Positions 13,155 through 64,000 of a stretch of DNA of 64,000 nt are shown piece by piece. The position numbers and the translations under genes were made by a program. Every line of letters begins with the position of its first letter. The stretch's first letter is position 1. The stretch is from Candidatus Woesearchaeota archaeon (GTDB lineage: Archaea; Nanobdellota; Nanobdellia; SCGC-AAA011-G17; JACPIM01), in NCBI GenBank assembly GCA_964513145.1, contig CAZELK010000006.1:2051-66050 (forward strand). Reading direction: 5' to 3'. The notes below the pieces were generated by a model. The model had not been told where the DNA came from and ran no database searches. It saw nothing but the letters and a program-made list of their open reading frames with translations.

Positions 13155-14579
13155 TTATTTTAATAATTTTTTTAATAAATCAGAAAGTTTTTTTCCGTCA
13201 ATTGAGCCTCTAAATGTTTTCATTGCTTCGCCCATTAAAGCTGAAAATGAAGCTCCTTTATTTTTAATTATTAATTCTTTTAATTTTATTTCTACTTCTT
13301 TTACATTAATTTGTTTATATTTATTTAAATCAATGTGCTTGCCTTGGGCTAAGTCCAATAATATCTCTTTTGCAGCTTCTCTTGTTATTCTTTTTTCTTG
13401 GAGATTTTTAAAAATAAACTCAAAATCTTTTTGTGATAATTTTTCTGGGCTGACATTAAATCTTCTTCTTATTTCTTTTGGATATTCAACCAATAACTCA
13501 GCCATCAAACTTGGATTTAGACAGTATTTTTCAGAATAATAGTCAAAAGGTATGCTTTCTTCCAAAATTTCTCTTGCAAGCTGTTCGTTTATTTTATATT
13601 TTTTCTCGAAATTTATTGCTCTTTCTGTTAGTAATTCTGGTATTTCAATTTGAGACAATAACTCTTTTGTTATTCTTATTAGAACTATATCTGTCTCAAC
13701 ATACATTCTGGAGCCTGTTGGCATTGGTCTTAAAAATGTTGATGTGAAATCCGGCTCAACTTTTCTAACTTCTGCTTTTAATTCTTTTTTATTTTTTATA
13801 TTTTCTAATTGCCTATTTATTTCATTTTCTATTGTTTTTGGAATTCCTCTTAAATCCTGAAAACCTTTTAATTCTACTCTTGGATGGTCTTTAATACTTA
13901 CATTCACATCCTGTCTTATTGAACCCAATCCAGATTTAAATTTTCCTGTTGATTTTAATATCATCCCCAAATATTCAGCAATTTCTTTTGCATGTTCGGG
14001 ATCTTTTATACTTGAATCTGTTGCTATTTCTATTAATGGAATTCCTAGTCTGTCTAAATTATAAATAACTGATTTTTCATCTTGTTTTATTTTTTTAGCC
14101 GCTTCTTCTTCTAAACAAATTGTGGGAATTTTTACTTCCCCTTTTGAAGTTTTTATAGAACCATTAATTGCGATTAAAGTAGTTCTTTGGAAACCAGAAA
14201 TATTAGAACCGTCAACTATAACCTTTCTCATTATTTGAATTTCATCAATTATTTTTGCATTTGTTAAAATAGCAACCTGTAAAGCAACTTTTAGTGCTTC
14301 TTTATTTAATTTTTCGGGCGGGGATTCGTCCAAATCAACTAAACAAGTTGTGTCTTTATTAATTTCATATATAAAGATTTTATCTTTTTGTGTTTCATAT
14401 AAAGCAGCTATATCTATTCCCCCTAATTCTCCGGCAGAAGCTTTTAATTTTCTTTTAATTGTATGGTCTACTTTTTCTGTATTTGTCAAAGAAGGACATT
14501 CACAAAATAATTTATGAGTTTCAATCTGCCTGTGAATTTCTAGACCAATACGTAAACCTAATTCTTTATAATTTAGCAT
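13155..14579 (-). CDS. gatE: Glu-tRNA(Gln) amidotransferase subunit E, compact form
   Basis: 474 aa. GLEIHRQI..KLFCEC and the GatE-specific VDGSNISGFQRTTLIAINGSI. It is ~150 aa shorter than typical GatE (~620 aa); the AspRS-like insertion domain appears absent or reduced. Confidence 0.75.
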   Translation of the reverse strand: MLNYKELGLRIGLEIHRQIETHKLFCECPSLTNTEKVDHTIKRKLKASAGELGGIDIAALYETQKDKIFIYEINKDTTCLVDLDESPPEKLNKEALKVALQVAILTNAKIIDEIQIMRKVIVDGSNISGFQRTTLIAINGSIKTSKGEVKIPTICLEEEAAKKIKQDEKSVIYNLDRLGIPLIEIATDSSIKDPEHAKEIAEYLGMILKSTGKFKSGLGSIRQDVNVSIKDHPRVELKGFQDLRGIPKTIENEINRQLENIKNKKELKAEVRKVEPDFTSTFLRPMPTGSRMYVETDIVLIRITKELLSQIEIPELLTERAINFEKKYKINEQLAREILEESIPFDYYSEKYCLNPSLMAELLVEYPKEIRRRFNVSPEKLSQKDFEFIFKNLQEKRITREAAKEILLDLAQGKHIDLNKYKQINVKEVEIKLKELIIKNKGASFSALMGEAMKTFRGSIDGKKLSDLLKKLLK

Positions 14580-15054
14580 TTTTTACTTTATTACTTAATC
14601 TATCCCATTTCATAGTATCTTTTTCAAAAAAAGATAATGCTTTTACTAAGTTCTTTTTATTTAAAGATTTTGATATGCAAATCCATCGACCATAATTATC
14701 TAATTTTATTTTTTTCATTGGTAATAGTTTAGATAATATCTCATGACATCCCCTGATTATTTTTTTACTTTTACACGAAACTTGTATATTTCTTGTTTTT
14801 CTAAGTACATGCCCTTCAAAAGTCATAAAGCCACATAAAAAGGCAATTCGAAATTTTAAATTTGAATTTTTAATCAATTTTGGTTCTGTTACAGTATACG
14901 TTTTCTCACCTAAAGGAAAGCCCAAAAATTTATTTAAGTATCTAACAACAATTTTATTATCTAAATCAATTCTAAAGGCTTTCTTTTTCTTACATTTCTT
15001 TAATTTCGATTTTATTCCAAATATATGAAAAATCCAACCTTGAAGTTTTAGCAT
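14566..15054 (-). CDS. LAGLIDADG-like (single-motif) homing-endonuclease-like protein
   Basis: 162 aa, very basic. Carries RIAFLCGFMTFEGHV, which resembles LAGFIDGDG. Confidence 0.4.
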   Translation of the reverse strand: MLKLQGWIFHIFGIKSKLKKCKKKKAFRIDLDNKIVVRYLNKFLGFPLGEKTYTVTEPKLIKNSNLKFRIAFLCGFMTFEGHVLRKTRNIQVSCKSKKIIRGCHEILSKLLPMKKIKLDNYGRWICISKSLNKKNLVKALSFFEKDTMKWDRLSNKVKNAKL

Positions 15055-15164
15055 TGAACTCTCATACGCTTCTGTAATATTTATAGCGTTGGATATTGTT
15101 AAAGTAATTTGTTTATTTTCTCTAAATTTATATAGTTCTTTAGGAATAATTGATATTGTATTTT

Positions 15165-15722
15165 TTAGTGTGTATTTTTTAGTCTAATTCTTAAAGCCTT
15201 TTTTGTTTTAAATATTTTAAATTCGTAATTATTATTTTTTAAAATTTTAATTAAATCTTCTTTAATTTTTGAATCTTTAATTTCTATTCCTATCCTATTA
15301 CATATATTGCCGTCTGCTGCATGCGCTCCACAAATTTTCGCTAGATCTATATTAATAGTTTTAACAGCTTTTATTGGTTTCGACTTATTACTATTACATT
15401 TAATATATTCAACATTTTCATTTATTAAATTAAAGTATTTGGGAGCTTTACATAAGGATATGACCATTTCAAATAAGGGAATTGGAATCCATTCGCGATC
15501 ATTATAAATTATTTCTTCAATTGGTCCTAAACTACATTTTAATCTATTCTTAATAATTCTAGATAACTCCTTCTTTGATAATTGCTTTTCTTCTATTATT
15601 TGGTTGAATAAACCCATAAAACTCTTTCTTAAATTCTTTCCCTTAAAACAAATCCAACTTTTTGGCGAGATATCTACTTTTTTATCATGAAGTTTAAATA
15701 AATCAAATTTATTTTTAGACAT
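15165..15722 (-). CDS. LAGLIDADG-like (single-motif) homing-endonuclease-like protein
   Basis: 185 aa with LAKICGAHAADGNI. Adjacent to and co-directional with 14566..15054. Confidence 0.4.
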   Translation of the reverse strand: MSKNKFDLFKLHDKKVDISPKSWICFKGKNLRKSFMGLFNQIIEEKQLSKKELSRIIKNRLKCSLGPIEEIIYNDREWIPIPLFEMVISLCKAPKYFNLINENVEYIKCNSNKSKPIKAVKTINIDLAKICGAHAADGNICNRIGIEIKDSKIKEDLIKILKNNNYEFKIFKTKKALRIRLKNTH

Positions 15723-15944: not shown

Positions 15945-16235
15945 ATGGGTGGGGGTACAGGTGATTGCGAACTTGGAGATTCTGAGTTAAAGGAAGTTTA
16001 TAGTTTAGAATTTTTAACAACTATTGATGGGGAAGAATTTACAAGGAAGCAAATTGGCTTTTCAAAGGAGAAGTTTGTTGTTTTAAATGTACATGGCTCC
16101 AGATGTGAACATAAAGAGGTTCAAATAGGTCCTGATTTATATGCTTTATTTAAGGAACAAGCTTTAAAAGGAAGTTATAGGTCTGCAAAAGAGTTTTGTG
16201 CAGGCTTAGAAAAATCTCCTGAGAAAATTTATTAA
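15945..16235 (+). CDS. hypothetical protein (96 aa)
   Basis: ORF in the track. Convergent with gatD (stop overlap). Confidence 0.35.
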   Translation: MGGGTGDCELGDSELKEVYSLEFLTTIDGEEFTRKQIGFSKEKFVVLNVHGSRCEHKEVQIGPDLYALFKEQALKGSYRSAKEFCAGLEKSPEKIY

Positions 16236-17515
16236 TTTATTTCTGTTCTTTTTGATATTTCGCCATGTAAATTTTCATGAAATAATTCCTTAACTTTATT
16301 TTTAGGATAATTGCTTAAAAGCCAGGCTATTTTTATAAAAGCAGTTTCTGTTAATATATCCAGTAAATTTCCTATTACTCCTGCTTCCTGCAATAAACGA
16401 CCTGTAGAATAAACATTCATATTTATTCTACCGTAAATTGTTTGGGAGGTAGCTATTACAGGAATTTTTTTAGCTAATTTTTTTATTTCATTGTATATTT
16501 TTTTATTTTCTTTTGTGTATTTGTCAATTTCATTTATTGGAAAATTACCTGCAAGACCAAAACCTTCCAATATTAGCGCATCAAAATTTCTGTAATTAGA
16601 TATCTCTTTTGAAATCATATTTGGGTGTGATTTAAGAATGCCTATTTTCAATTTAGAATTAAATAGATTTAATTTTAAAGATTTATTTTCTTTTTTAACA
16701 TGCGGCTTTAAGAATGTAATATTGCCTTTTGAACTAATTCTTGCAATTGGCGAATCATTAACAACTTTAAAGGCATCTCTTGATGACGTGTGCATTTTTC
16801 TTGTTTTTAATGACGGCATTATCAAGCAGTTATCATCATTTGTTGATTCGTGCATGCAAATTGCAACGCCCTGAAAATCTGTTTTTGCTATAAAATTCGC
16901 TGCAGATATCAAATTTAATGCTGCATCAGTACTACCCCTGTCTGAGCTTCTTTGAGAACCTACCAAAATTACCGGGACATTTAAATTTTCCAGAATAAAT
17001 GTTAATGATGCTGATGTGAAGGCTAATGTGTCTGTGCCATGAGTTATTATTATGCCGTCAACCCCTTCTTTTATTTCCTTTTCAATTTCCTTTGCTATAA
17101 TATTATAGTGATTAAAATTCATGTCTTCTGAGAACATGCTGCTGATTAACCTTGATTTTATATTTGCTATTTTTTGAAGCTCGGGAAACATTGCAATGAT
17201 TTCTTCTGGGGTAAATTTTGATATTACACCCCCAGTTTCATAAGAAACCCTGCTTGAGATTGTTCCACCAGTATGAAGAATAGAAATTGTTTTTAGTTCT
17301 TTTTTAAATTGGATCTTTTGCTGTTCCTGATTTTTCTCTTCAAATTTCTTTATTAATTTTATAGATTTAATATTCTTTTTTAGAATTCCAATATTATACC
17401 CTGAAGACAACTTTATTACAATAATTTCCTTATTTTCTGATGGAACAAATGCCCCATTTAATACCCCTTTATTTGTGCTGATCTCTATTAAGTCGCCCAA
17501 ATTAAAATTCTGCAT
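16232..17515 (-). CDS. gatD: Glu-tRNA(Gln) amidotransferase subunit D (asparaginase-like)
   Basis: 427 aa. Asparaginase motifs HTGGTI and THGTDT, with the GatD N-terminal domain. Confidence 0.85.
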   Translation of the reverse strand: MQNFNLGDLIEISTNKGVLNGAFVPSENKEIIVIKLSSGYNIGILKKNIKSIKLIKKFEEKNQEQQKIQFKKELKTISILHTGGTISSRVSYETGGVISKFTPEEIIAMFPELQKIANIKSRLISSMFSEDMNFNHYNIIAKEIEKEIKEGVDGIIITHGTDTLAFTSASLTFILENLNVPVILVGSQRSSDRGSTDAALNLISAANFIAKTDFQGVAICMHESTNDDNCLIMPSLKTRKMHTSSRDAFKVVNDSPIARISSKGNITFLKPHVKKENKSLKLNLFNSKLKIGILKSHPNMISKEISNYRNFDALILEGFGLAGNFPINEIDKYTKENKKIYNEIKKLAKKIPVIATSQTIYGRINMNVYSTGRLLQEAGVIGNLLDILTETAFIKIAWLLSNYPKNKVKELFHENLHGEISKRTEIN

Positions 17516-56425: not shown

Positions 56426-56546
56426 ATATTTACTCATTATTAATGAATTATAGATACGATTAATATGGTAAACCTTCCTACTATTCACTATCCTAATGAA
56501 ACTCCCACATAAATAGTGAATAATACCTCATATTTTCTATTGAGAA
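56426..56546 (+). repeat. direct repeat copy A (~121 bp core, diverged extension to ~56610)
   Basis: atatttactcattattaatgaattata...ttcactatc...aataatac[ct]tcatattttctatt[t]gagaa. About 85% identical to 59265..59386. Confidence 0.7.
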
Positions 56547-56640
56547 GTTTGCAAAATAGTTAATTTAGATTTGTCACTTATACAAAAAGCTTTCTAATAT
56601 TAATAGTAAACTTTATAAGTAAGCTTTCTATTTATATTAT

Positions 56641-57927
56641 ATGGATTTTAAAAGTATAATTAAAGAACAAAGAGAAGAACTCGAAAAAATAGAAAGAGAA
56701 GAAAAAATAATAGAAAGAACTAATTTAGAAGAGTCTAAAATAGCATTAAAATACCCAAATATACTTGCTATTTTAGGTATTAGAAGGTGCGGTAAGTCAA
56801 TTTTTTCATATTTATTGGCAAAACCACATAAATTTGCATACATTAATTTTGATGACGAAAGGCTAGCTGGATTGAAAAGTGGGGACTTGAACAAGATTTT
56901 AGAATCTTTTTATGAAATTTATGGAGATATAGAATTTATAATTTTAGATGAAATACAAAATATAGATAACTGGGAACTATTTGTCAATAGATTAAGAAGA
57001 ACAAAAAAAATAATCTTAACAGGAAGCAATTCTAAACTTTTATCAGGGGAATTATCAACTCATTTAACTGGAAGATACTTAAATAAATTATTGTTTCCAT
57101 TTTCTTTTAAAGAACTATTAAAATTGAAAGATTTTAAAGAAAATAATGTTTATACAACACAAGAAAAAGCAAAAATTATGGGACTTTTGCAAGAATATCT
57201 TGAACTGGGTGGATTCCCGGAAGCATATAAATTTGGAAGAGGAATAATTTTAAGAATTTATGAAGATATATTAACAAAGGATATTTTATTAAGACACAAT
57301 ATAACCAAGAGAGAAGAAATAAAAAAATTAGCTAAATACTTAATAACAAATTCTTCTGGAGAAATAACTTATAGCAAATTAGCAAAAATATTTAATATTA
57401 AACATGTTTCAACAATATCTAACTGGATTTCGTTTCTCGAAAATGCTTTTTTGATTTTTAGATTGGAAAGATTTGACTTTAAGTTAAAACAGCAATTTAT
57501 AGCTCCAAAGAAAGTATATTGTATTGATTCCGGACTTGTTAATTCAATAGGGTTTCAATTCTCAGAAAATAAGGGAGAAATTATTGAAAATGAAGCTGCA
57601 TTAGAATTACAGAGAAGAAAAGCTATAGATAAATCTCTTGAAGTTTATTATTGGAAAAACCATCAGCAGAATGAAGTAGATTTTGTTCTAAAAAGAGACA
57701 AAAAAATAGAAAGTTTAATTCAAGTCAGCTATATAAACTCAAAAGAAGAAATAAAAGAAAGAGAAATTAATTCTTTAATAAAAGCAAGCAAAGAGCTAAA
57801 ATGTAAAAATCTTGTTGTTATAACCTGGGATTATGAATCAGAAGAAAAGTTTTATGGAGAAGAGATTAAATTTGTTCCATTATGGAATTGGCTGCTTGGA
57901 TATAAAGAACATATTAAAATAAACTAA
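56641..57927 (+). CDS. AAA+ ATPase, AAA_14/DUF4143 family
   Basis: 428 aa. Walker A GIRRCGKS, Walker B IILDEIQ, DUF4143-like C-terminal half. Confidence 0.8.
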   Translation: MDFKSIIKEQREELEKIEREEKIIERTNLEESKIALKYPNILAILGIRRCGKSIFSYLLAKPHKFAYINFDDERLAGLKSGDLNKILESFYEIYGDIEFIILDEIQNIDNWELFVNRLRRTKKIILTGSNSKLLSGELSTHLTGRYLNKLLFPFSFKELLKLKDFKENNVYTTQEKAKIMGLLQEYLELGGFPEAYKFGRGIILRIYEDILTKDILLRHNITKREEIKKLAKYLITNSSGEITYSKLAKIFNIKHVSTISNWISFLENAFLIFRLERFDFKLKQQFIAPKKVYCIDSGLVNSIGFQFSENKGEIIENEAALELQRRKAIDKSLEVYYWKNHQQNEVDFVLKRDKKIESLIQVSYINSKEEIKEREINSLIKASKELKCKNLVVITWDYESEEKFYGEEIKFVPLWNWLLGYKEHIKIN

Positions 57928-57998
57928 GTCATCATTTATTGTTATCACTATTGATTTAAGACAATAATTTATATAGAGAAATTTATATAAAATTATAG

Positions 57999-58505
57999 AT
58001 GAGATTTTTAAATAAGAGGGGTATTTCTCCTTTAATTGCAACTGTATTATTAATTGGGTTTACTGTTGCCTTGGCTGCAGTAGTTATTACTTGGGGCAGC
58101 GGGTTTGTTAACAAGGTTACTTCAACTACAGAAGAAAGCACATTAAAAACAATTTCCTGCACTACTGATGTAAGTTTTGAAATTACAAAAGTAACATGTG
58201 ATACTGAACCTGGAAATCCAGATCCAAGCACAATAACTGTAGATAATCGCGGTAGTTTAGATATTGAAGGTCTAATTTTAAGATTTTATGATATTAATGG
58301 AGAGGTTTCTGGAGAAGCAACCAATACTGAACCCATTGGTAAATTCGAAGTTAAAACTATTTTGTTATATCCTGACACAATTCCGCAAGAAAAAATACCA
58401 ACTGAGACAACTAAAGTAGAGGCAATTGCAGTAGTCAAATATAATGATCAAAATTTAACTTGTGGTGGGAATGCAAGACAGAAATCATTTACTCCTTCCT
58501 GTTAA
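57999..58505 (+). CDS. archaeal type IV pilin (class III signal peptide), paralog
   Basis: MRFLNKRGISPLIATVLLIGFTVALAAVVITWGSGFV. C-terminal ..FTPSC. Confidence 0.75.
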   Translation: MRFLNKRGISPLIATVLLIGFTVALAAVVITWGSGFVNKVTSTTEESTLKTISCTTDVSFEITKVTCDTEPGNPDPSTITVDNRGSLDIEGLILRFYDINGEVSGEATNTEPIGKFEVKTILLYPDTIPQEKIPTETTKVEAIAVVKYNDQNLTCGGNARQKSFTPSC

Positions 58506-58512
58506 TTCTTAC

Positions 58513-59094
58513 ATGAAAAAAGGCCAGATATGGACATCAGCAGTTTTGTATATAGTTATAGGAGTAATTACAATATCAATTATTTTAAGTGCTGGGGTAC
58601 CTTTAGTAAATAAATTAAAAGATAAAAATACAATAATCCAAACAAAAGAATTAATGCTGGACTTGGATAAAGTAATTAGGGAAGTTAGAAATGAGGGGCC
58701 TGGTTCGAAAAGGGTTATACAGCCTTTTGTTATAAAGGATGGAAATTTTTTTATTAATACAACAAATAATGAAAATAAAATACAATGGATATTGAAAACT
58801 AGTGCTGTATTTGTTGAACCTTGTGGAAAAACAAAAGCAGACTGCTTAAGCAATAATTTAATTATTAAAGAGGGGCCTTTAAGTATTTATGACACTGATA
58901 CTATTGTTGAAGATGAATATATTATTAATTTGGAATTAGACTATGCTGGCGTTGGTTTTTTGAAAATGAAAGAGGGTCTTGGCAAAGATGCGCCTTTGCT
59001 AGGGAGATTTTCTTTTATAATTGAAAATTCTGGTGCTGATATTACAAGAAGTCCACCAACGAACCTGCCTGATTTGGATATTACAGTAAATTGA
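58513..59094 (+). CDS. class III signal peptide (pilin-like) protein
   Basis: MKKGQIWTSAVLYIVIGVITISIIL. The track ORF (58462) extends upstream into the preceding gene. Confidence 0.6.
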   Translation: MKKGQIWTSAVLYIVIGVITISIILSAGVPLVNKLKDKNTIIQTKELMLDLDKVIREVRNEGPGSKRVIQPFVIKDGNFFINTTNNENKIQWILKTSAVFVEPCGKTKADCLSNNLIIKEGPLSIYDTDTIVEDEYIINLELDYAGVGFLKMKEGLGKDAPLLGRFSFIIENSGADITRSPPTNLPDLDITVN

Positions 59095-59264
59095 ACGGTT
59101 TCTTCAAAAAAAAAGTAAGAACTTGATTTTTATATCCTAACTAAGCTTTTCATTTATTTTCTTGAGATTGAAAAGTATTATTTTTTGCAGATTTGAAAGT
59201 AATTTTTTATCTTCTCTTGCTCTTGCCCCTTTAGTATAATTCAGGTATTCGTCCAGCAATCTGC

Positions 59265-59386
59265 ATATTTACTCATTATTAATGAATTATATATGGGATT
59301 AATATGGCAGACCCCCCTATTATTCACTATCATAATAATATTTCACCATAAATAATGAATAATACTTCATATTTTCTATTTGAGAA
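59265..59386 (+). repeat. direct repeat copy B
   Basis: See copy A. A further diverged similarity exists at ~59420-59445 versus ~56585-56610. Confidence 0.7.
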
Positions 59387-59567
59387 ACACCTTAAATCTG
59401 TAGTCTGACTAAAATAAGAAAACCATAAATTTTCTCTTACTATTAATGGTGAGGAAGGCAGGGGTTTTGCTGGACTGGGTTTTTCATGGTAATGTTACTA
59501 TTTATTTGTTAATGCACTTCTTTATATAGAATAAGTTGATAATTTATTTATAAAAGAGCTGTGTTAA

Positions 59568-60815
59568 ATGAAATTAGAAAATACATTAACTATTTTTTGT
59601 ATTTCCCTTTTGGGTTTTTTATTGTTATTAGTTAATTTTTATACTGTTAAATATAATGAAGACATTACTGGACAAATTGTATTAAGTGATTTTGCCTTGT
59701 TTGGTGCTGCTGCTTCTGGTGATAAAAATGCATGCAATGCCATTGCAAGCACTTATGCAGGAAATTTGGATGTTTTACCAAAATCAGTTTTAGATGCATG
59801 CAGATTTCCAAAGACTCCTTCTTTTTCTACACAAGTTGATAATTTAAACTTGGAACAATTAGATACAAATCTGAAAAATGTAGACAATTCTATTGCACAA
59901 TTAGATTTATTAGGATCTGCCATGAGCAACAGTATACCTAGTCTAAAAGAAGAAAAAACTACTTTAGAAGGTGAATTTATTTCTCTTAAAACTGAGATCC
60001 CTAAGTTAGCAACTACTATTTCTGAATTTGATACAAAACTTAGAAAAGTTAATTCAGATTTAAGCAAAGCAAAAAGTAAACCCTGCAAAATATTTCAAAC
60101 CAGCTGCAAGACTTTAAAGAACCAAGAAGTTTCTAAATTTAAATCTGAAGCTGATTTATTAAATAAAGACAAATCTTCTGCAGTAAGGAATAGCAAAGGA
60201 AAAACAGTTTTATTAAATAATAAAAGAGCTAAATTAAGTGATTTATCTTCCCAAATACAATTAGCTGAACAAGTTAAAGCTAATATTGGAAATAAGAAAA
60301 ATGAATTAAATAAGTTAAAGAATGACATTACTAATAAAATAAGTGAATTGGAAAAAGAAATTTTAGATGAAACAATTCGTGTTGAAGATGAGGATGATAT
60401 ATCAAATGCAGAAGTATCCAAAACTAGTAAAGTCTGCCATTGCACTCTGCGAGAGATAACAGAGGTAGAATGCAAGAAGAAAGGAATTCCTATTCAAACT
60501 GGTCCTGAAACTATTACTCCTTGGGAAGAAGGTGTTGCAAGTGGCGGTACTTGGAAAGTTTATCTTGATCGGGGTTTTGGTATGTCTGCAACAAAGTGCA
60601 CGCGTGATTTGATTTATCCAGATGGTGCCTGTAATTCTGATGCGGACTGCATAGAGGGCTGTGCCTTTAAAATGCAGGATCAAGGGTCGACGGCGAGACT
60701 TGATTGCTTGGATACAGTGGAAAGAATTTGTGCAAAGAGAGGAGGGACAACGAATAAACTTTACTGGCCTGTTCGAAAGGAAGGTATTTGTTTGGATGTA
60801 GTTAGCGCTCCTTGA
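59568..60815 (+). CDS. membrane-anchored coiled-coil protein with Cys-rich C-terminal domain (candidate surface/adhesin protein)
   Basis: 415 aa. N-terminal signal anchor. ~250 aa Lys/Asn/Leu-rich coiled coil. C-terminal ~130 aa with 14 Cys (CHC...ECKKKG...CTRD...CNSDADCIEGC...). The C-terminus is encoded by GC-rich DNA. Confidence 0.6.
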   Translation: MKLENTLTIFCISLLGFLLLLVNFYTVKYNEDITGQIVLSDFALFGAAASGDKNACNAIASTYAGNLDVLPKSVLDACRFPKTPSFSTQVDNLNLEQLDTNLKNVDNSIAQLDLLGSAMSNSIPSLKEEKTTLEGEFISLKTEIPKLATTISEFDTKLRKVNSDLSKAKSKPCKIFQTSCKTLKNQEVSKFKSEADLLNKDKSSAVRNSKGKTVLLNNKRAKLSDLSSQIQLAEQVKANIGNKKNELNKLKNDITNKISELEKEILDETIRVEDEDDISNAEVSKTSKVCHCTLREITEVECKKKGIPIQTGPETITPWEEGVASGGTWKVYLDRGFGMSATKCTRDLIYPDGACNSDADCIEGCAFKMQDQGSTARLDCLDTVERICAKRGGTTNKLYWPVRKEGICLDVVSAP

Positions 60816-61059
60816 AACATAGGTTTAGCACCCAAACTTAATCTTTAACTGCTTTAGGTGCTAATAAATATCAATAAGAATTGCACTACCAATACCGAAG
60901 ATTTTATTTTTCATTTAATTATTACTAAATAAATAACATCCTTATTAATTAAGGGTGAAGTCAGATTATCTTGTAGAACTCTCGGGGACTTTCTATAACA
61001 ACTTTTTTAATCCTGTTTCAAACATAGCTTTTAAATATTAGAAATGCAAATAATTATTT

Positions 61060-64000
61060 ATGTTAGGTCAAAATAAAGAGGTTATAGAGTTCAAGCCGAT
61101 TTTTTACATAAATCCAAGACCAGAGATAGCTGAATTACCTGATGTAAAAGAAAAGCAAAAAATAGATGTGAGATATGTTTTATTAGAACCTTATGTAAAT
61201 GCACATATTTTCTGGGACAAAGAAAACAATGAACTTGTATATTATGTTGAAGAACCACAATTAGATGAAAAAGAATTAAATGTCCTGAATATTTTAGAAA
61301 ATGGGATAAATGAATTAATAAACATCAGCTTTATTGCAATGAAAAATACTGATGTTGTAGTTGAATATTTAGAAAAAAACATAAGGGTTTTATTAAATGA
61401 ATTGAAAATAAGCATTTCCAAAGAATCTTATTTAAAATTAATGTATTATATTTACAGAGATTTTGTTGGACTAAATGAAATTGAGCCTTTGCTAAAGGAT
61501 TATTATATTGAAGATATTGAATGCAATGGTGTTAATACTCCAATTTACATTGTCCATAGAAAATACAGGAATTTAAGAACAAATATTATTTTTAAAGATG
61601 CAAAAGAATTAACTAGTTTTGTAGAAAAATTAGCACAAAAATGCGGGAAATATATATCTTATGCTTCCCCTTTATTAGACGCAAGTTTGCCAGATGGGTC
61701 GCGTATTCAAGCAACATTCACGCAAGATATTTCTTCAAGAGGACCAAGTTTTTGCTTTGCTGACGGATATTTACAATTAAATAATGGCGAGGTTGTGAAA
61801 ATAAATAAATTATTTGAAAAATGTAAAAATGACTTTGGTTCAAGTTTTGATAAAGAAAATGAAATTGTTAATGTAACTAATGTTGGTGTTTGCGGAGTTG
61901 ATGAAAATAATTTAAAACAAATTGATTCTAAACTAAAAACTATAATAAAATTGAAACCACCTGAAGAATTAGTAAATATTGGATTTGATGATGGTTCAGA
62001 AATAATCACAACTACAAACCACTTATTTCATGTGGTGGATAATGATTTAAGCCTTTTAGAAGCACATAAATTAAAAACCGGGTTGTTTGTACCTATGCCT
62101 TCTAAAGTAGATGTAGAGGGTTGCATGCAATCTATCAACATAGTCAATTTAATAAAGGAATTTTCTTATTTATATAAAGTCTGTCTAGTTTCAAACCAAG
62201 AAATTAAAAACATAGTTTCCAACAATATTGATTTTTATAAAAATAAAAGCAGAGATTATAGAATACAAATGGCTCAGGACTATACAGTACATAATTCTTA
62301 TTTCTATGAGATTCTTTCAAGAGGAAGCTCAATTTCTTTTGAAGTTCTTAATGAAATATGTGATCTTAATTCTCTGGATGAAATCAATTTAGTTGTTTAT
62401 GGCGGTCCTGTTAAAAAAGAAAGAAAATCTATAAATGTACCAAAAATTTTAGATGAGGAATTAGCTTATCTGGCTGGTGCTATAATTAGTGATGGTCATC
62501 TCAGTAAATATAGTATTGATATTGCTTGTTATAATACTGGATTTACAAATGCGGTTACTACCAGACTAAAAAATAAATTTGGGAAATTTAATGTCTATTA
62601 TAATGGTACCAGAGTTTATTTGTGCAATCTATTTGTGCCTTTTTTCTTCAATAAAATATTTGGCATACCTTATGGAAGGAAAGCAAAAATTGTAAATATT
62701 CCGGAGATAATATTTAAATCAGATAATAAAATAATTGCCGCTTTTTTAAAAGGTTTATTTGACGGTGATGGGACATGCAAATCTGGAATAAGCTATAAAA
62801 CAAGCTCCAAAGAACTTGCAGAACAATTAACTTATTTATTAGCCAGATTAGGGTTATATTCCAAAATTATACTTAAAAAGAATATGTATAGAGTTCTTAT
62901 ACCGTCAATTTATGAAAATATTTATTCTGAAAAAATTAATTTTTGTGATACTTTTAAAATTAAATGTTTGAGCGAGTTACTTTTGAAGAAAGGAAATAAT
63001 GCCAAATCTTATATTAGACATGGCAGAGTCCCTGCAAAACCCATCCTGAACTTAATGAAAGATGTGGGTTTATCTAAAAATAAAGCAAGTAAATTATGTA
63101 AAGTGAGCTATAACAGATTAGTACATTATGACTCCTTGTCAAAACCTTTTGTTAAACAAATAATTAGTTTAATAGAATTGGAAATAGAAAACAAGGGGAT
63201 AAAAAACTGCAAATTAGACTACATAAAATGGTTAGTTGGATGTGAACAAGAATTTGTTAAAATTAAACATGTAAAAATCTTTGAAAATAAAAATAAAATA
63301 CCAGTTTATGATATAGAATTAGAACCTTGTAAATTCTTTATAGCTGGAAACAAACCAATGAATATTTTTGATACAGTTAGAAAATTTACAAAAGACCCAT
63401 GGACCCCAGTTAAATTAATGCAATTTAAAACAGTTTCACCAGAAATTTTGGCTTATCTCTGGCTGTTAATAGAAAATGAAGCAAATATAATGATAATCGG
63501 CGGAACTGGTTCTGGAAAAACTTCTTTTCTGAACTCGATTGCTTTTTTTATTCCGCCAGCAGCAAGGGTTGTTTCAATTGAGGATAGTGTCACTGGAGAC
63601 TCCGAGATTATATATAAAAATAAAGATAAAATTGAAAAATTAACAATAGGTAAATTAACAAAATTAGTAAATAGTAAAAAAATTAATTTAGAAAACATTG
63701 AAATTTTGACAGTAGATGATGACTGGAAAGTCAGATTTGGAAAACCCAGCAAATTTATAAAACATTCAACAAATAAAGATATATTCAAAATTACAACTTC
63801 GACTGGCAGAATAATAGAGGTAACAAAAGATCATTCTTTGTTTACACTAACCACTTCCGGATTAGTTGAAGTAAAACCAGAGAATTTAGAAGAAAATGTA
63901 TCCTGTATTGCTGTTCCCAGAGTTCTGCCTATAGAAGGAAAAGGTTTTTTTGATATTAATTTAATTAATCATTTAAATTATTTTAATGAAGATTTTTTAA
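61060..64000 (+). CDS. FlaI/GspE-family type IV pilus/archaellum assembly ATPase, interrupted by two inteins; 3' end outside the window
   Basis: Extein ...SRIQATFTQDISSRGPSF | TVRKFTKDPWTPVKLMQ...IMIIGGTGSGKTSFLNSIAFFIPPAARVVSIED | ... aligns to FlaI (..SRRGTSFTIRKF.., Walker A, ..ISIEDT..). The ORF stays open to the window end. Confidence 0.8.
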   Translation, partial: MLGQNKEVIEFKPIFYINPRPEIAELPDVKEKQKIDVRYVLLEPYVNAHIFWDKENNELVYYVEEPQLDEKELNVLNILENGINELINISFIAMKNTDVVVEYLEKNIRVLLNELKISISKESYLKLMYYIYRDFVGLNEIEPLLKDYYIEDIECNGVNTPIYIVHRKYRNLRTNIIFKDAKELTSFVEKLAQKCGKYISYASPLLDASLPDGSRIQATFTQDISSRGPSFCFADGYLQLNNGEVVKINKLFEKCKNDFGSSFDKENEIVNVTNVGVCGVDENNLKQIDSKLKTIIKLKPPEELVNIGFDDGSEIITTTNHLFHVVDNDLSLLEAHKLKTGLFVPMPSKVDVEGCMQSINIVNLIKEFSYLYKVCLVSNQEIKNIVSNNIDFYKNKSRDYRIQMAQDYTVHNSYFYEILSRGSSISFEVLNEICDLNSLDEINLVVYGGPVKKERKSINVPKILDEELAYLAGAIISDGHLSKYSIDIACYNTGFTNAVTTRLKNKFGKFNVYYNGTRVYLCNLFVPFFFNKIFGIPYGRKAKIVNIPEIIFKSDNKIIAAFLKGLFDGDGTCKSGISYKTSSKELAEQLTYLLARLGLYSKIILKKNMYRVLIPSIYENIYSEKINFCDTFKIKCLSELLLKKGNNAKSYIRHGRVPAKPILNLMKDVGLSKNKASKLCKVSYNRLVHYDSLSKPFVKQIISLIELEIENKGIKNCKLDYIKWLVGCEQEFVKIKHVKIFENKNKIPVYDIELEPCKFFIAGNKPMNIFDTVRKFTKDPWTPVKLMQFKTVSPEILAYLWLLIENEANIMIIGGTGSGKTSFLNSIAFFIPPAARVVSIEDSVTGDSEIIYKNKDKIEKLTIGKLTKLVNSKKINLENIEILTVDDDWKVRFGKPSKFIKHSTNKDIFKITTSTGRIIEVTKDHSLFTLTTSGLVEVKPENLEENVSCIAVPRVLPIEGKGFFDINLINHLNYFNEDFL
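61753..63372 (+). mobile_element. Intein 1 (540 aa) with LAGLIDADG homing-endonuclease domain
   Basis: Starts CFADGY (block A). Block B TTTNHLFHV. Two LAGLIDADG motifs (LAYLAGAIISDGH, IAAFLKGLFDGDG). C-terminal block VYDIELEPCKFFIAGNKPMNIFD followed by +1 Thr; the last residue appears to be Asp rather than Asn. Confidence 0.75.
63586..64000 (+). mobile_element. Intein 2 (partial), inserted at the conserved IED|T site
   Basis: Begins SVTGDSEII (Ser1 block A). Block B TKDHSLF. Continues past the window end. Confidence 0.55.

What the first reader, a model, noticed from the sequence alone, without database searches (positions are those of the whole stretch)
61060..64000. FlaI-like pilus ATPase carries two inteins; intein 1 has a homing endonuclease and an apparent C-terminal Asp
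The extein reconstructs cleanly to FlaI motifs (SRGPSF|TVRKF and SIED|). Intein 1 (540 aa) has blocks A/B, two LAGLIDADG motifs and a C-terminal block ending ...FFIAGNKPMNIFD before +1 Thr. It therefore lacks the canonical terminal His-Asn; Asp- and Gln-terminal inteins are known but rare. Intein 2 starts with Ser at the strictly conserved IED|T box and runs out of the window. Two inteins in one pilus ATPase is unusual and suggests conditional splicing control of pilus assembly.
Basis: partly seen in the sequence, partly recalled or inferred. Interest (0 to 1): 0.6.

Follow-up and report, generated by a model that had tools for sequence, protein, structure and literature searches.

The report
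Three-intein archaeal pilus ATPase; Asp-ended intein
This gene for a DPANN-archaeal type IV pilus ATPase is interrupted by three self-splicing inteins (two begin inside the window), and the first belongs to a previously undescribed intein lineage that always ends in aspartate instead of the usual asparagine, which is a rare but already documented variant of protein splicing.

Summary
The ORF at 61060-64000 is the first 980 aa of a 2011-aa precursor. The full protein (P0138) and a near-identical contig (L003) were recovered. After the inteins are removed, a 524-aa T2SSE/GspE-type pilus ATPase remains. It aligns without gaps to intein-free orthologues (up to 80% identity) at all three junctions.

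- Intein 1 (nt 61753-63372, 540 aa): Cys1, block B TxxH, block F Asp, two LAGLIDADG motifs. It ends ...NIFD|T.
- The terminal Asp is invariant in all 55 inteins collected at this site (28-98% identity; Pacearchaeota, Woesearchaeota and Aenigmarchaeota-like archaea). The penultimate residue is F, H or Y and the +1 residue is T, S or C.
- Inteins at five other sites of the same host family end in Asn, almost all as His-Asn.
- Intein 2 (starts at nt 63586) has Ser1 in 63/63 relatives. It is 499 aa and ends HN|T.
- A third intein (448 aa) lies beyond the window.

"Two inteins is unusual" and "conditional splicing control" are not supported. Multi-intein alleles are common in this family, intein-free alleles dominate among the closest orthologues, and all three inteins keep homing-endonuclease motifs, which is the pattern of selfish elements. 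C-terminal Asp inteins are known but rare, so this is a new, large natural family of a known variant. Interest is moderate to low.

The parts
61060..61752 (+). N-extein (aa 1-231) of a T2SSE/GspE-type archaeal type IV pilus ATPase, ending ...SRGPSF
   Evidence: Translation. Aligns to A. fulgidus GspE 2OAP residues 17-225. tblastn of a spliced homologue covers 61087-61755.
61753..63372 (+). Intein 1 (540 aa): Cys1 ... Phe-Asp terminus, containing a LAGLIDADG homing endonuclease
   Evidence: Pfam Intein_splicing and LAGLIDADG_3. 48/48 close and 7/7 distant homologues at the same site share Cys1 and terminal Asp. AF2 model pLDDT 91.7. Best PDB matches are PI-PkoII, TliVMA and PI-PfuI.
61753..61791 (+). 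Intein 1 block A (CFADGYLQLNNGE); Cys1 is the nucleophile
   Evidence: C1 and G12 are invariant in 55/55. Coordinates.
62011..62031 (+). Intein 1 block B: T87-T-N-H90-L-F92-H93 (TxxH plus a family-specific second His)
   Evidence: T87, H90, F92 and H93 are invariant in 55/55. Coordinates.
62461..62499 (+). Intein 1 LAGLIDADG motif 1 (LAYLAGAIISDGH)
   Evidence: Sequence. D247 is conserved in 54/55.
62734..62775 (+). Intein 1 LAGLIDADG motif 2 (IAAFLKGLFDGDGT)
   Evidence: Pfam LAGLIDADG_3 covers aa 559-614. Coordinates.
63301..63348 (+). Intein 1 block F (PVYDIELEPCKFFIAG) with Asp520 at position F:4
   Evidence: V518 and D520 are invariant in 55/55; Y519 in 54/55.
63349..63372 (+). Intein 1 atypical block G (NKPMNIFD). 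Pro535 and the terminal Asp540 (GAT, 63370-63372) are invariant. Phe replaces the usual penultimate His.
   Evidence: NCBIfam intein_Cterm (TIGR01443) does not detect this terminus but does detect those of inteins 2 and 3. The last beta-strand of the AF2 model is MNIF, followed by Asp.
63373..63585 (+). Middle extein (aa 772-842): Thr+1, TVRKF, Walker A GGTGSGKT (63499-63522), Asp box VVSIED (63568-63585)
   Evidence: Aligns to 2OAP residues 225-296 and FlaI residues 220-291. Junctions are gap-free against intein-free orthologues.
63586..64000 (+). Intein 2, N-terminal 138 aa (Ser1, SVTGDSEII...; block B VTKDHSLF at 63820-63843). It continues beyond the window: 499 aa in all, ending ...ILLHN|TRELAL
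   Evidence: Completed from P0138 and L003 (L003 7074-8570).

Best explanation
The window's last gene encodes the precursor of an archaeal (DPANN, Pacearchaeota/Woesearchaeota-like) type IV pilus assembly ATPase of the GspE/FlaI/VirB11 (T2SSE) superfamily. Three mobile inteins carrying LAGLIDADG homing endonucleases have invaded it at conserved motifs: GPSF|T, IED|T and QGMS|SGH. The precursor is 2011 aa, of which 74% is intein. Splicing restores a 524-aa ATPase.

Intein 1 most likely works as a class-1 intein.
1. Cys1, helped by block B Thr87/His90 and block F Asp520, makes the N-terminal thioester.
2. Thr+1 takes over the N-extein, giving the branched intermediate.
3. The terminal Asp540 cyclises (to a succinic-anhydride-type product instead of the succinimide formed by Asn) and releases the intein.
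4. An O-to-N shift then forms the peptide bond.

Shown here: the anatomy, the junctions, the invariance of Asp and the canonical fold. Inferred: that the intein splices, and that step 3 uses Asp cyclisation.

Inteins 2 and 3 are canonical Ser1...His-Asn inteins. The arrangement is best read as accumulation of selfish homing elements in an intein hotspot gene, not as a regulatory device.
For: - Full-length protein P0138 is identical over the 980 aa in the window and has inteins at aa 232-771, 843-1341 and 1410-1857.
- Contig L003 matches window 56513-64000 with 1 mismatch in 7488 bases. It continues into two T2SSF genes.
- The spliced 524-aa extein hits intein-free orthologues end to end: the best is 80% identical over 99% of the query, and all top 120 are 509-632 aa. 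All three junctions are gap-free.
- The spliced extein scores 106.5 bits on Pfam T2SSE.
- Every one of the 55 inteins at site b has Cys1 and terminal Asp. This covers 48 close homologues (all Cys1...FD|T) and 7 distant ones. Across the 11 distinct 50%-identity cluster representatives the termini are FD|T, FD|S, HD|T, YD|C and YD|T. T87, H90, F92, H93, D520 and P535 are also invariant.
- Both Asp codons, GAT and GAC, occur.
- Internal control: inteins at other sites of the same host family end in Asn. Site d ends HN in 60/61 (NN in one); sites a, c, e and f all end HN.
- The AF2 model is confident (pLDDT 91.7, pTM 0.91). Its best PDB matches are archaeal intein endonucleases: 2CW7 (E 1e-26, TM 0.69/0.71), 7QSS and 1DQ3.
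- The literature documents inteins with C-terminal Asp or Gln. Cyclisation analogous to Asn is the accepted proposal (PMC4031507, which cites Amitai et al. 2004; PMC2807308).
Against: - There is no experimental evidence of splicing for any member.
- Asp cyclisation is chemically less favourable than Asn cyclisation. For the one studied Asp-terminal intein, other mechanisms were discussed (PMC2807308).
- A profile-profile alignment put NIFD opposite NIFV(HN). The residue-by-residue equivalence of Asp540 with Asn G:7 therefore rests on the extein junction and on the predicted strand register, not on a structural superposition.
Confidence: 0.75

Rival explanations
1. Conditional protein splicing. 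The Asp terminus, possibly with a Cys1-Cys526 disulfide, makes intein 1 slow or dependent on pH or redox state. Maturation of the pilus ATPase, and hence pilus assembly, would then be gated post-translationally. This is compatible with the best explanation, with a regulatory role added.
For: - The Asp terminus is strictly conserved rather than reverting to Asn.
- Atypical C-terminal residues (Gln) are reported to slow step 3, and an internal disulfide switch is known in a Gln-terminal Pol II intein (PMC4031507 text and its reference 79).
- Cys526 in block F is near-invariant in the close FD clade.
Against: - The closest orthologues lack all inteins: the top 120 hits are 509-632 aa. The host therefore does not need them.
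- Intein occupancy is patchy over at least 6 sites.
- All three inteins keep endonuclease motifs, as mobile elements do.
- Cys526 is not conserved in the distant Asp-terminal members.
- No expression or splicing data exist.
Confidence: 0.12
2. Intein 1 splices, but step 3 does not use Asp side-chain cyclisation. For example, cleavage of the Asp-Thr bond could be assisted by the family-specific His93 or by backbone strain from the Pro535 hairpin.
For: - Alternative mechanisms have been proposed for Asp- and Gln-terminal inteins (PMC2807308; PMC4031507 Fig. 3 legend).
- This lineage has its own invariant residues, H93 and P535, which are absent from the canonical inteins of the same host.
- The penultimate His is usually missing (F or Y in most members).
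Against: Asp is invariant in 55/55, which is most simply explained if its side chain takes part in the chemistry. There are no data on the role of H93 or P535.
Confidence: 0.12
3. Intein 1 is a splicing-dead relic: a pseudogenised ATPase, or a permanently retained insertion domain.
For: - It lacks both canonical block G residues (His-Asn).
- The NCBIfam intein_Cterm model does not detect its terminus.
- One distant member (P0144, L005) sits in a gene that is apparently frameshifted.
Against: - The reading frames are intact through 540 aa in 50+ lineages of 28-98% identity.
- Every splicing residue is invariant: C1, T87, H90, D520, D540, and the +1 nucleophile (T/S/C).
- The extein motifs are intact: Walker A, Asp box, Walker B and His box.
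- The extein is up to 80% identical to intein-free orthologues.
- The insertion lies between the conserved motifs GPSF and TIRKF, which are contiguous in intein-free orthologues. A permanent 540-aa insert there is unlikely to be tolerated (inference).
Confidence: 0.05
4. The C-terminal junction is misplaced and the intein really ends at an Asn (AGN or PMN).
For: Two Asn residues lie 3 and 7 residues upstream of the Asp.
Against: - Neither Asn is followed by Cys, Ser or Thr.
- Ending there would leave 3-7 extra residues that are absent from every intein-free orthologue and from 2OAP and FlaI.
- Asn537 is replaced by V, T, H, I, Y or L in relatives.
Confidence: 0.01

Closest known systems
Inteins with a C-terminal Asp, of which one from Carboxydothermus hydrogenoformans (RIR1, by my recollection) has been studied (Amitai, Dassa & Pietrokovski 2004, J Biol Chem 279:3121; cited in PMC4031507)
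   Same: An intein whose last residue is Asp instead of Asn. The reviews say such inteins exist and that Asp can undergo a cyclisation analogous to Asn.
   Different: By my recollection (the paper is not held) that intein is bacterial, sits in a ribonucleotide reductase, was shown experimentally to splice, and was described as a single unusual case. Here the intein is archaeal, sits in a pilus ATPase, and belongs to a whole lineage (55/55) with invariant Asp plus its own conserved His93 and Pro535. Sequence relatedness to the Chy intein was not tested because no sequence was available.
C-terminal Gln inteins (Pyrococcus abyssi and Methanoculleus marisnigri Pol II, Chilo iridescent virus RNR)
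   Same: Class-1 inteins in which Asn G:7 is replaced by a residue that can still cyclise. They are discussed as variants with altered step-3 kinetics (PMC4031507).
   Different: Gln rather than Asp, different host proteins, and no sequence similarity found here.
KlbA inteins (class 2) of archaeal KlbA proteins
   Same: Inteins in archaeal KlbA proteins (PMC2807308). By my recollection KlbA is a secretion ATPase related to VirB11/TrbB; I did not test this.
   Different: KlbA inteins begin with Ala1 and splice by direct attack of Cys+1. By my recollection they are mini-inteins that end in Asn. Intein 1 has Cys1, Asp at the end, Thr+1 and an endonuclease. Whether the KlbA insertion site coincides with any of sites a-f was not tested.
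PI-PkoII (2CW7), TliVMA intein (7QSS), PI-PfuI (1DQ3)
   Same: The closest solved structures to the AF2 model (Foldseek E 1e-26 to 4e-16, TM 0.55-0.81). All are archaeal inteins that carry a LAGLIDADG homing endonuclease.
   Different: 14-18% sequence identity. By my recollection these inteins end in the canonical His-Asn and sit in other host proteins (DNA polymerase, V-ATPase, ribonucleotide reductase).
Archaeoglobus fulgidus GspE (2OAP) and Sulfolobus acidocaldarius FlaI (4II7): relatives of the host protein
   Same: The extein aligns across the N-terminal domain and the start of the ATPase domain (E 7e-59 and 3e-33). The GSSF|TIRKF and SIED|T motifs are conserved.
   Different: Neither solved protein carries an intein: each aligns as one continuous chain across the site-b junction. 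The window protein is below the FlaI equivalog cut-off and lies in a pilin/T2SSF operon.

Membership tests
Intein, class 1 (standard four-step splicing) | In-frame insertion in a conserved host motif; removing it restores a collinear host protein | tested here: met
   Junctions are gap-free against intein-free orthologues and 2OAP.
Intein, class 1 (standard four-step splicing) | N-terminal Cys or Ser nucleophile (block A) | tested here: met
   Cys1 in 55/55 site-b inteins. Ser1 in 63/63 site-d inteins.
Intein, class 1 (standard four-step splicing) | Block B Thr-x-x-His | tested here: met
   T87 and H90 are invariant.
Intein, class 1 (standard four-step splicing) | Block F position 4 Asp | tested here: met
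   D520 in VYD is invariant.
Intein, class 1 (standard four-step splicing) | C-terminal Asn (G:7) preceded by His (G:6) | tested here: not met
   Intein 1 ends Phe-Asp. Asp is found in 55/55 and the penultimate residue is F, H or Y. TIGR01443 gives no hit. Inteins 2 and 3 do end in His-Asn. Reviews count Asp-terminal inteins as class-1 variants.
Intein, class 1 (standard four-step splicing) | +1 Cys, Ser or Thr nucleophile on the C-extein | tested here: met
   Thr+1 in the window; T, S or C in relatives.
Intein, class 1 (standard four-step splicing) | HINT fold | tested here: met
   AF2 pLDDT 91.7. Foldseek matches to intein structures, including mini-inteins (rmsd 1.8-2.8 A over about 120 columns).
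Intein, class 1 (standard four-step splicing) | Demonstrated protein splicing | not testable with these tools
   Requires expression and mass analysis.
Class 3 inteins (WCT triplet) | No N-terminal nucleophile; Trp B:12, Cys F:4, Thr G:5 | tested here: not met
   Cys1 is present, F:4 is Asp, and B:12 is Phe92. Definition from PMC2807308.
Class 2 (KlbA-type) inteins | Ala1 with Cys+1 attacking directly | tested here: not met
   Cys1 and Thr+1. Definition from PMC2807308.
LAGLIDADG homing endonuclease (two-motif, intein-borne) | Two LAGLIDADG motifs, each with a terminal acidic residue; Pfam match | tested here: met
   LAYLAGAIISDG and LKGLFDGDG. LAGLIDADG_3 scores 57 bits against a cut-off of 22.5. 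Endonuclease activity was not tested.
T2SSE secretion/pilus ATPase (PF00437) | Pfam gathering score; Walker A, Asp box, Walker B and His box | tested here: met
   The spliced extein scores 106.5 bits against a cut-off of 24.9. GGTGSGKT, VVSIED, PDYVIVGEIRG and SGHPSFGTMHA are present.
FlaI (archaellum motor ATPase, NCBIfam NF058587 equivalog) | Score at or above the curated equivalog cut-off | tested here: not met
   396.7 bits against a cut-off of 550. The neighbours are pilin-like ORFs and T2SSF genes. No gene in the stretches examined was recognisable as an archaellin or an archaellum accessory protein.

The most novel reading that the evidence does not exclude
The site-b inteins of DPANN pilus ATPases may be an old, exclusively Asp-terminated intein lineage with a co-adapted active site: a second block-B His (His93), an invariant Pro535 in a lengthened final hairpin, and no requirement for the penultimate His. 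Such a lineage might carry out step 3 by chemistry distinct from Asn cyclisation. Because that chemistry depends on the protonation state of Asp, splicing, and so pilus-ATPase maturation, might be sensitive to pH or redox state in these episymbiotic archaea.
Probability: 0.15. Interest if true: 0.6.

Novelty: new member of a known kind. Interest (0 to 1): 0.35.

Why it matters
By my recollection only one Asp-terminal intein has been studied biochemically, and how it completes the C-terminal cleavage step was left open.

This lineage offers more than 50 diverse natural sequences with an invariant Asp and a short list of co-conserved residues (His93, Pro535, variable penultimate F/H/Y, +1 T/S/C). 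That is a ready-made mutational and comparative set for the question, and a possible source of inteins with unusual pH behaviour for protein engineering.

It also shows that standard intein C-terminal models (TIGR01443) miss this terminus, so such inteins are under-annotated in DPANN genomes.

For the biology of the organism it is otherwise ordinary: a pilus ATPase gene that has collected three mobile inteins.

Tried and rejected
- Exact-match DNA searches for the window's 3' end in genome contigs and metagenome contigs found nothing. The source-like contig was reached instead through the protein.
- A word-indexed search with intein 1 alone returned only 18 hits and missed most of the family. 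The exhaustive HMMER search was needed.
- Global profile-profile alignment of site-b against site-d inteins was uninformative for block G. It mis-registers the last residues, placing NIFD opposite NIFV and leaving HN unaligned.
- The junction-at-Asn hypothesis was rejected.
- The FlaI equivalog assignment was rejected.
- Class 2 and class 3 intein assignments were rejected.
- Literature searches for inteins in archaeal pilus, FlaI or GspE ATPases, or in DPANN archaea, found no paper describing them.
- The primary Amitai 2004 paper is not held.
- Rfam found no rRNA in the window for direct taxonomy. Taxonomy rests on the names of homologues.
- Model coordinates are not exposed, so active-site distances could not be measured.
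Full report
**Observation.** One reading frame is open from the ATG at 61060 to the end of the window (980 codons). Pfam finds an intein splicing domain (76 bits, cut-off 35.8), a LAGLIDADG_3 domain (57 bits) and a T2SSE secretion-ATPase segment (30 bits) in it. The sequence reads ...SRGPSF(231)|C(232)FADGYLQL... and ...FFIAGNKPMNIFD(771)|T(772)VRKFTKDPW..., then ...GGTGSGKT...VVSIED(842)|S(843)VTGDSEIIYKN... to the window edge. Intein 1 is therefore nt 61753-63372 (540 aa), with terminal Asp codon GAT at 63370-63372. The middle extein is nt 63373-63585. Intein 2 starts at nt 63586.

**Junctions.** Among 120 homologues (DPANN archaea: Pacearchaeota, Woesearchaeota, Nanoarchaeota), those without an insert at this position read SRGPTF|TIRKF, with nothing in between. 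The solved A. fulgidus GspE (2OAP, E 7e-59) and S. acidocaldarius FlaI (4II7, E 3e-33) align as ...GSSF|TIRKF... and ...SIED|T. An exhaustive HMMER search with intein 1 found P0138, a 2011-aa protein whose first 980 residues are identical to the window translation. The contig that carries it (L003) matches window 56513-64000 with one mismatch in 7488 bases and extends 5.5 kb further.

P0138 shows that intein 2 is 499 aa and ends ...ILLHN|TRELAL. It also shows a third intein (448 aa, SLRGDEE...ILAHN) interrupting QGMS|SGHPSFGTMH. Removing all three leaves 524 aa. This spliced sequence finds intein-free orthologues end to end: the best is 80% identical over 99% of the query at 529 aa, and all top 120 hits are 509-632 aa. 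It aligns to them without a gap at each of the three junctions and scores 106.5 bits on Pfam T2SSE. The alternative Asn junctions (AGN, PMN) fail. No nucleophile follows either one, they would leave residues that no orthologue has, and Asn537 is not conserved.

**The Asp terminus.**
- All 48 close homologues with an intein at this site (pairwise identity 34-98%, median 55%) have Cys1, terminal Phe-Asp and Thr+1.
- All 11 representatives of 50%-identity clusters with an intein at this site end in Asp: FD|T, FD|S, HD|T, YD|C and YD|T, down to 28% identity. One is named Aenigmarchaeota.
- In a 55-sequence alignment the invariant splicing-domain residues are C1, G12, T87, H90, F92, H93, V518, D520, P525, G532, P535 and D540.
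- Both Asp codons occur: GAT in four loci and GAC in one.
- As an internal control, inteins at five other sites of the same host family end in Asn. At site d (IED|T) 60 of 61 end His-Asn and one ends Asn-Asn. Sites a (LPDG|SR), c (P-loop GK|T), e and f (QGMx|SGH) all end His-Asn.
- NCBIfam's intein C-terminal model detects the ends of inteins 2 and 3 (21.8 and 38.3 bits, cut-off 15.6) but gives no hit for intein 1.

**Fold.** AlphaFold2, run with the 47-sequence alignment, gives a confident model (pLDDT 91.7, pTM 0.91). The last hairpin has strands FFIAG and MNIF, and the Asp follows directly. Counting back from the end, the last five residues (M-N-I-F-D) correspond to the five-residue end of the site-d inteins (I-F-V-H-N). 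The turn is two residues longer and holds the invariant Pro. This is an inference from the strand register, not a superposition. Foldseek places the model with archaeal intein endonucleases: PI-PkoII 2CW7 (E 1e-26, TM 0.69/0.71), the TliVMA intein 7QSS and PI-PfuI 1DQ3.

**Mechanism.** Every element of class-1 splicing is present except His-Asn: Cys1, the TxxH motif of block B, Asp at F:4, and a +1 hydroxyl or thiol nucleophile. Reviews state that some inteins replace the C-terminal Asn by Asp or Gln, that these residues can cyclise analogously, and that other mechanisms have been proposed (PMC4031507, PMC2807308). The primary study is Amitai et al. 2004, which is not held in the library.

I therefore infer the following for intein 1: an N-S shift at Cys1, transesterification to Thr+1, release by cyclisation of Asp540, then an O-N shift. 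Splicing itself is inferred from four things:
- the frames are intact in more than 50 diverged lineages;
- the catalytic positions are invariant;
- the host motifs are intact;
- the insert separates the conserved motifs GPSF and TIRKF, which are contiguous in intein-free orthologues, so a permanent 540-aa insert there is unlikely to be tolerated.

None of this is experimental.

**Host and context.** The spliced extein is below the FlaI equivalog cut-off (396.7 against 550 bits) and closer to GspE than to FlaI. Upstream in the window lie several small ORFs with weak archaeal Pilin_N matches. Downstream in L003 lie two T2SSF genes. The homologous loci L001, L004 and L006 have the same layout of small ORFs, ATPase and T2SSF. 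This is an archaeal type IV pilus operon; "FlaI-like" holds only at superfamily level.

**Interpretation of multiple inteins.** The family has at least six insertion sites, and many alleles carry two or three inteins: b+d, b+c, b+f, a+b and d+f. The closest orthologues carry none. All three inteins of this gene keep both LAGLIDADG motifs with their acidic residues. This is the usual picture of homing elements accumulating in conserved ATPase motifs. I found nothing that points to regulation, so the conditional-splicing idea stays speculative. Near-invariant Cys526 in the close clade could in principle pair with Cys1, but it is not conserved in the distant Asp-terminal members.

**Novelty.** C-terminal Asp inteins and multi-intein genes are both documented. 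Searches of the held literature found no description of inteins in archaeal pilus, GspE or FlaI ATPases, or of this lineage. I rate it a new member, in fact a sizeable new natural family, of a known rare variant. Interest is 0.35.

Noticed in passing
beyond the window: L003 8775-10118 (equivalent to window coordinates 65287-66630): A third intein in the same gene (448 aa, Ser1...AHN|S, two LAGLIDADG motifs) interrupts QGMS|SGH next to the His box. The precursor is 2011 aa and 74% of it is intein.
   Followed up: yes
window 14566-15054 (-) and 15165-15722 (-): Two adjacent ORFs lie between a GatE-like gene (13155-14579) and a GatD-like gene (16232-17515); I assigned both names from the translations, without a search. 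Each ORF carries one LAGLIDADG-like motif. The stop-to-stop frame 14569-15183 (-), which contains the first ORF, matches the endonuclease part of the intein-1 HMM (E 7e-9). They look like one free-standing homing-endonuclease gene split in two.
   Followed up: partly
homologues P0001-P0120 and P0138-P0283: The DPANN pilus ATPase family is an intein hotspot with at least six insertion sites: LPDG|SR, GPxF|T, P-loop GK|T, IED|T, GEIRG|S and QGMx|SGH. Only the GPxF|T site has Asp-terminal inteins.
   Followed up: partly
window 63349-63372: NCBIfam TIGR01443 (intein C-terminal splicing region) does not detect the end of intein 1, although it detects the ends of inteins 2 and 3. Annotation that relies on this model would miss the terminus.
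   Followed up: yes
L005 853-3800: In the distant Asp-terminal member P0144 the host ATPase gene stops early, and the rest appears to continue in another frame. This is a frameshift, a pseudogene or an assembly error.
   Followed up: partly
L004 4262-5488 (-), 14819-16147 (+), 16302-16704 (+): Two TnpB-like (Cas12f1-like_TNB) genes flank the pilus ATPase locus of P0143. Another gene with an intein splicing domain starts at the end of the locus.
   Followed up: no
window 56641-57927 (+) and 59568-60815 (+): An AAA_14/DUF4143 ATPase gene and a 415-aa ORF with no Pfam match (Lys/Glu/Asn/Ser-rich middle, Cys-rich C-terminus) lie among the pilin-like genes, just upstream of the ATPase. Both are also present in L003.
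   Followed up: no
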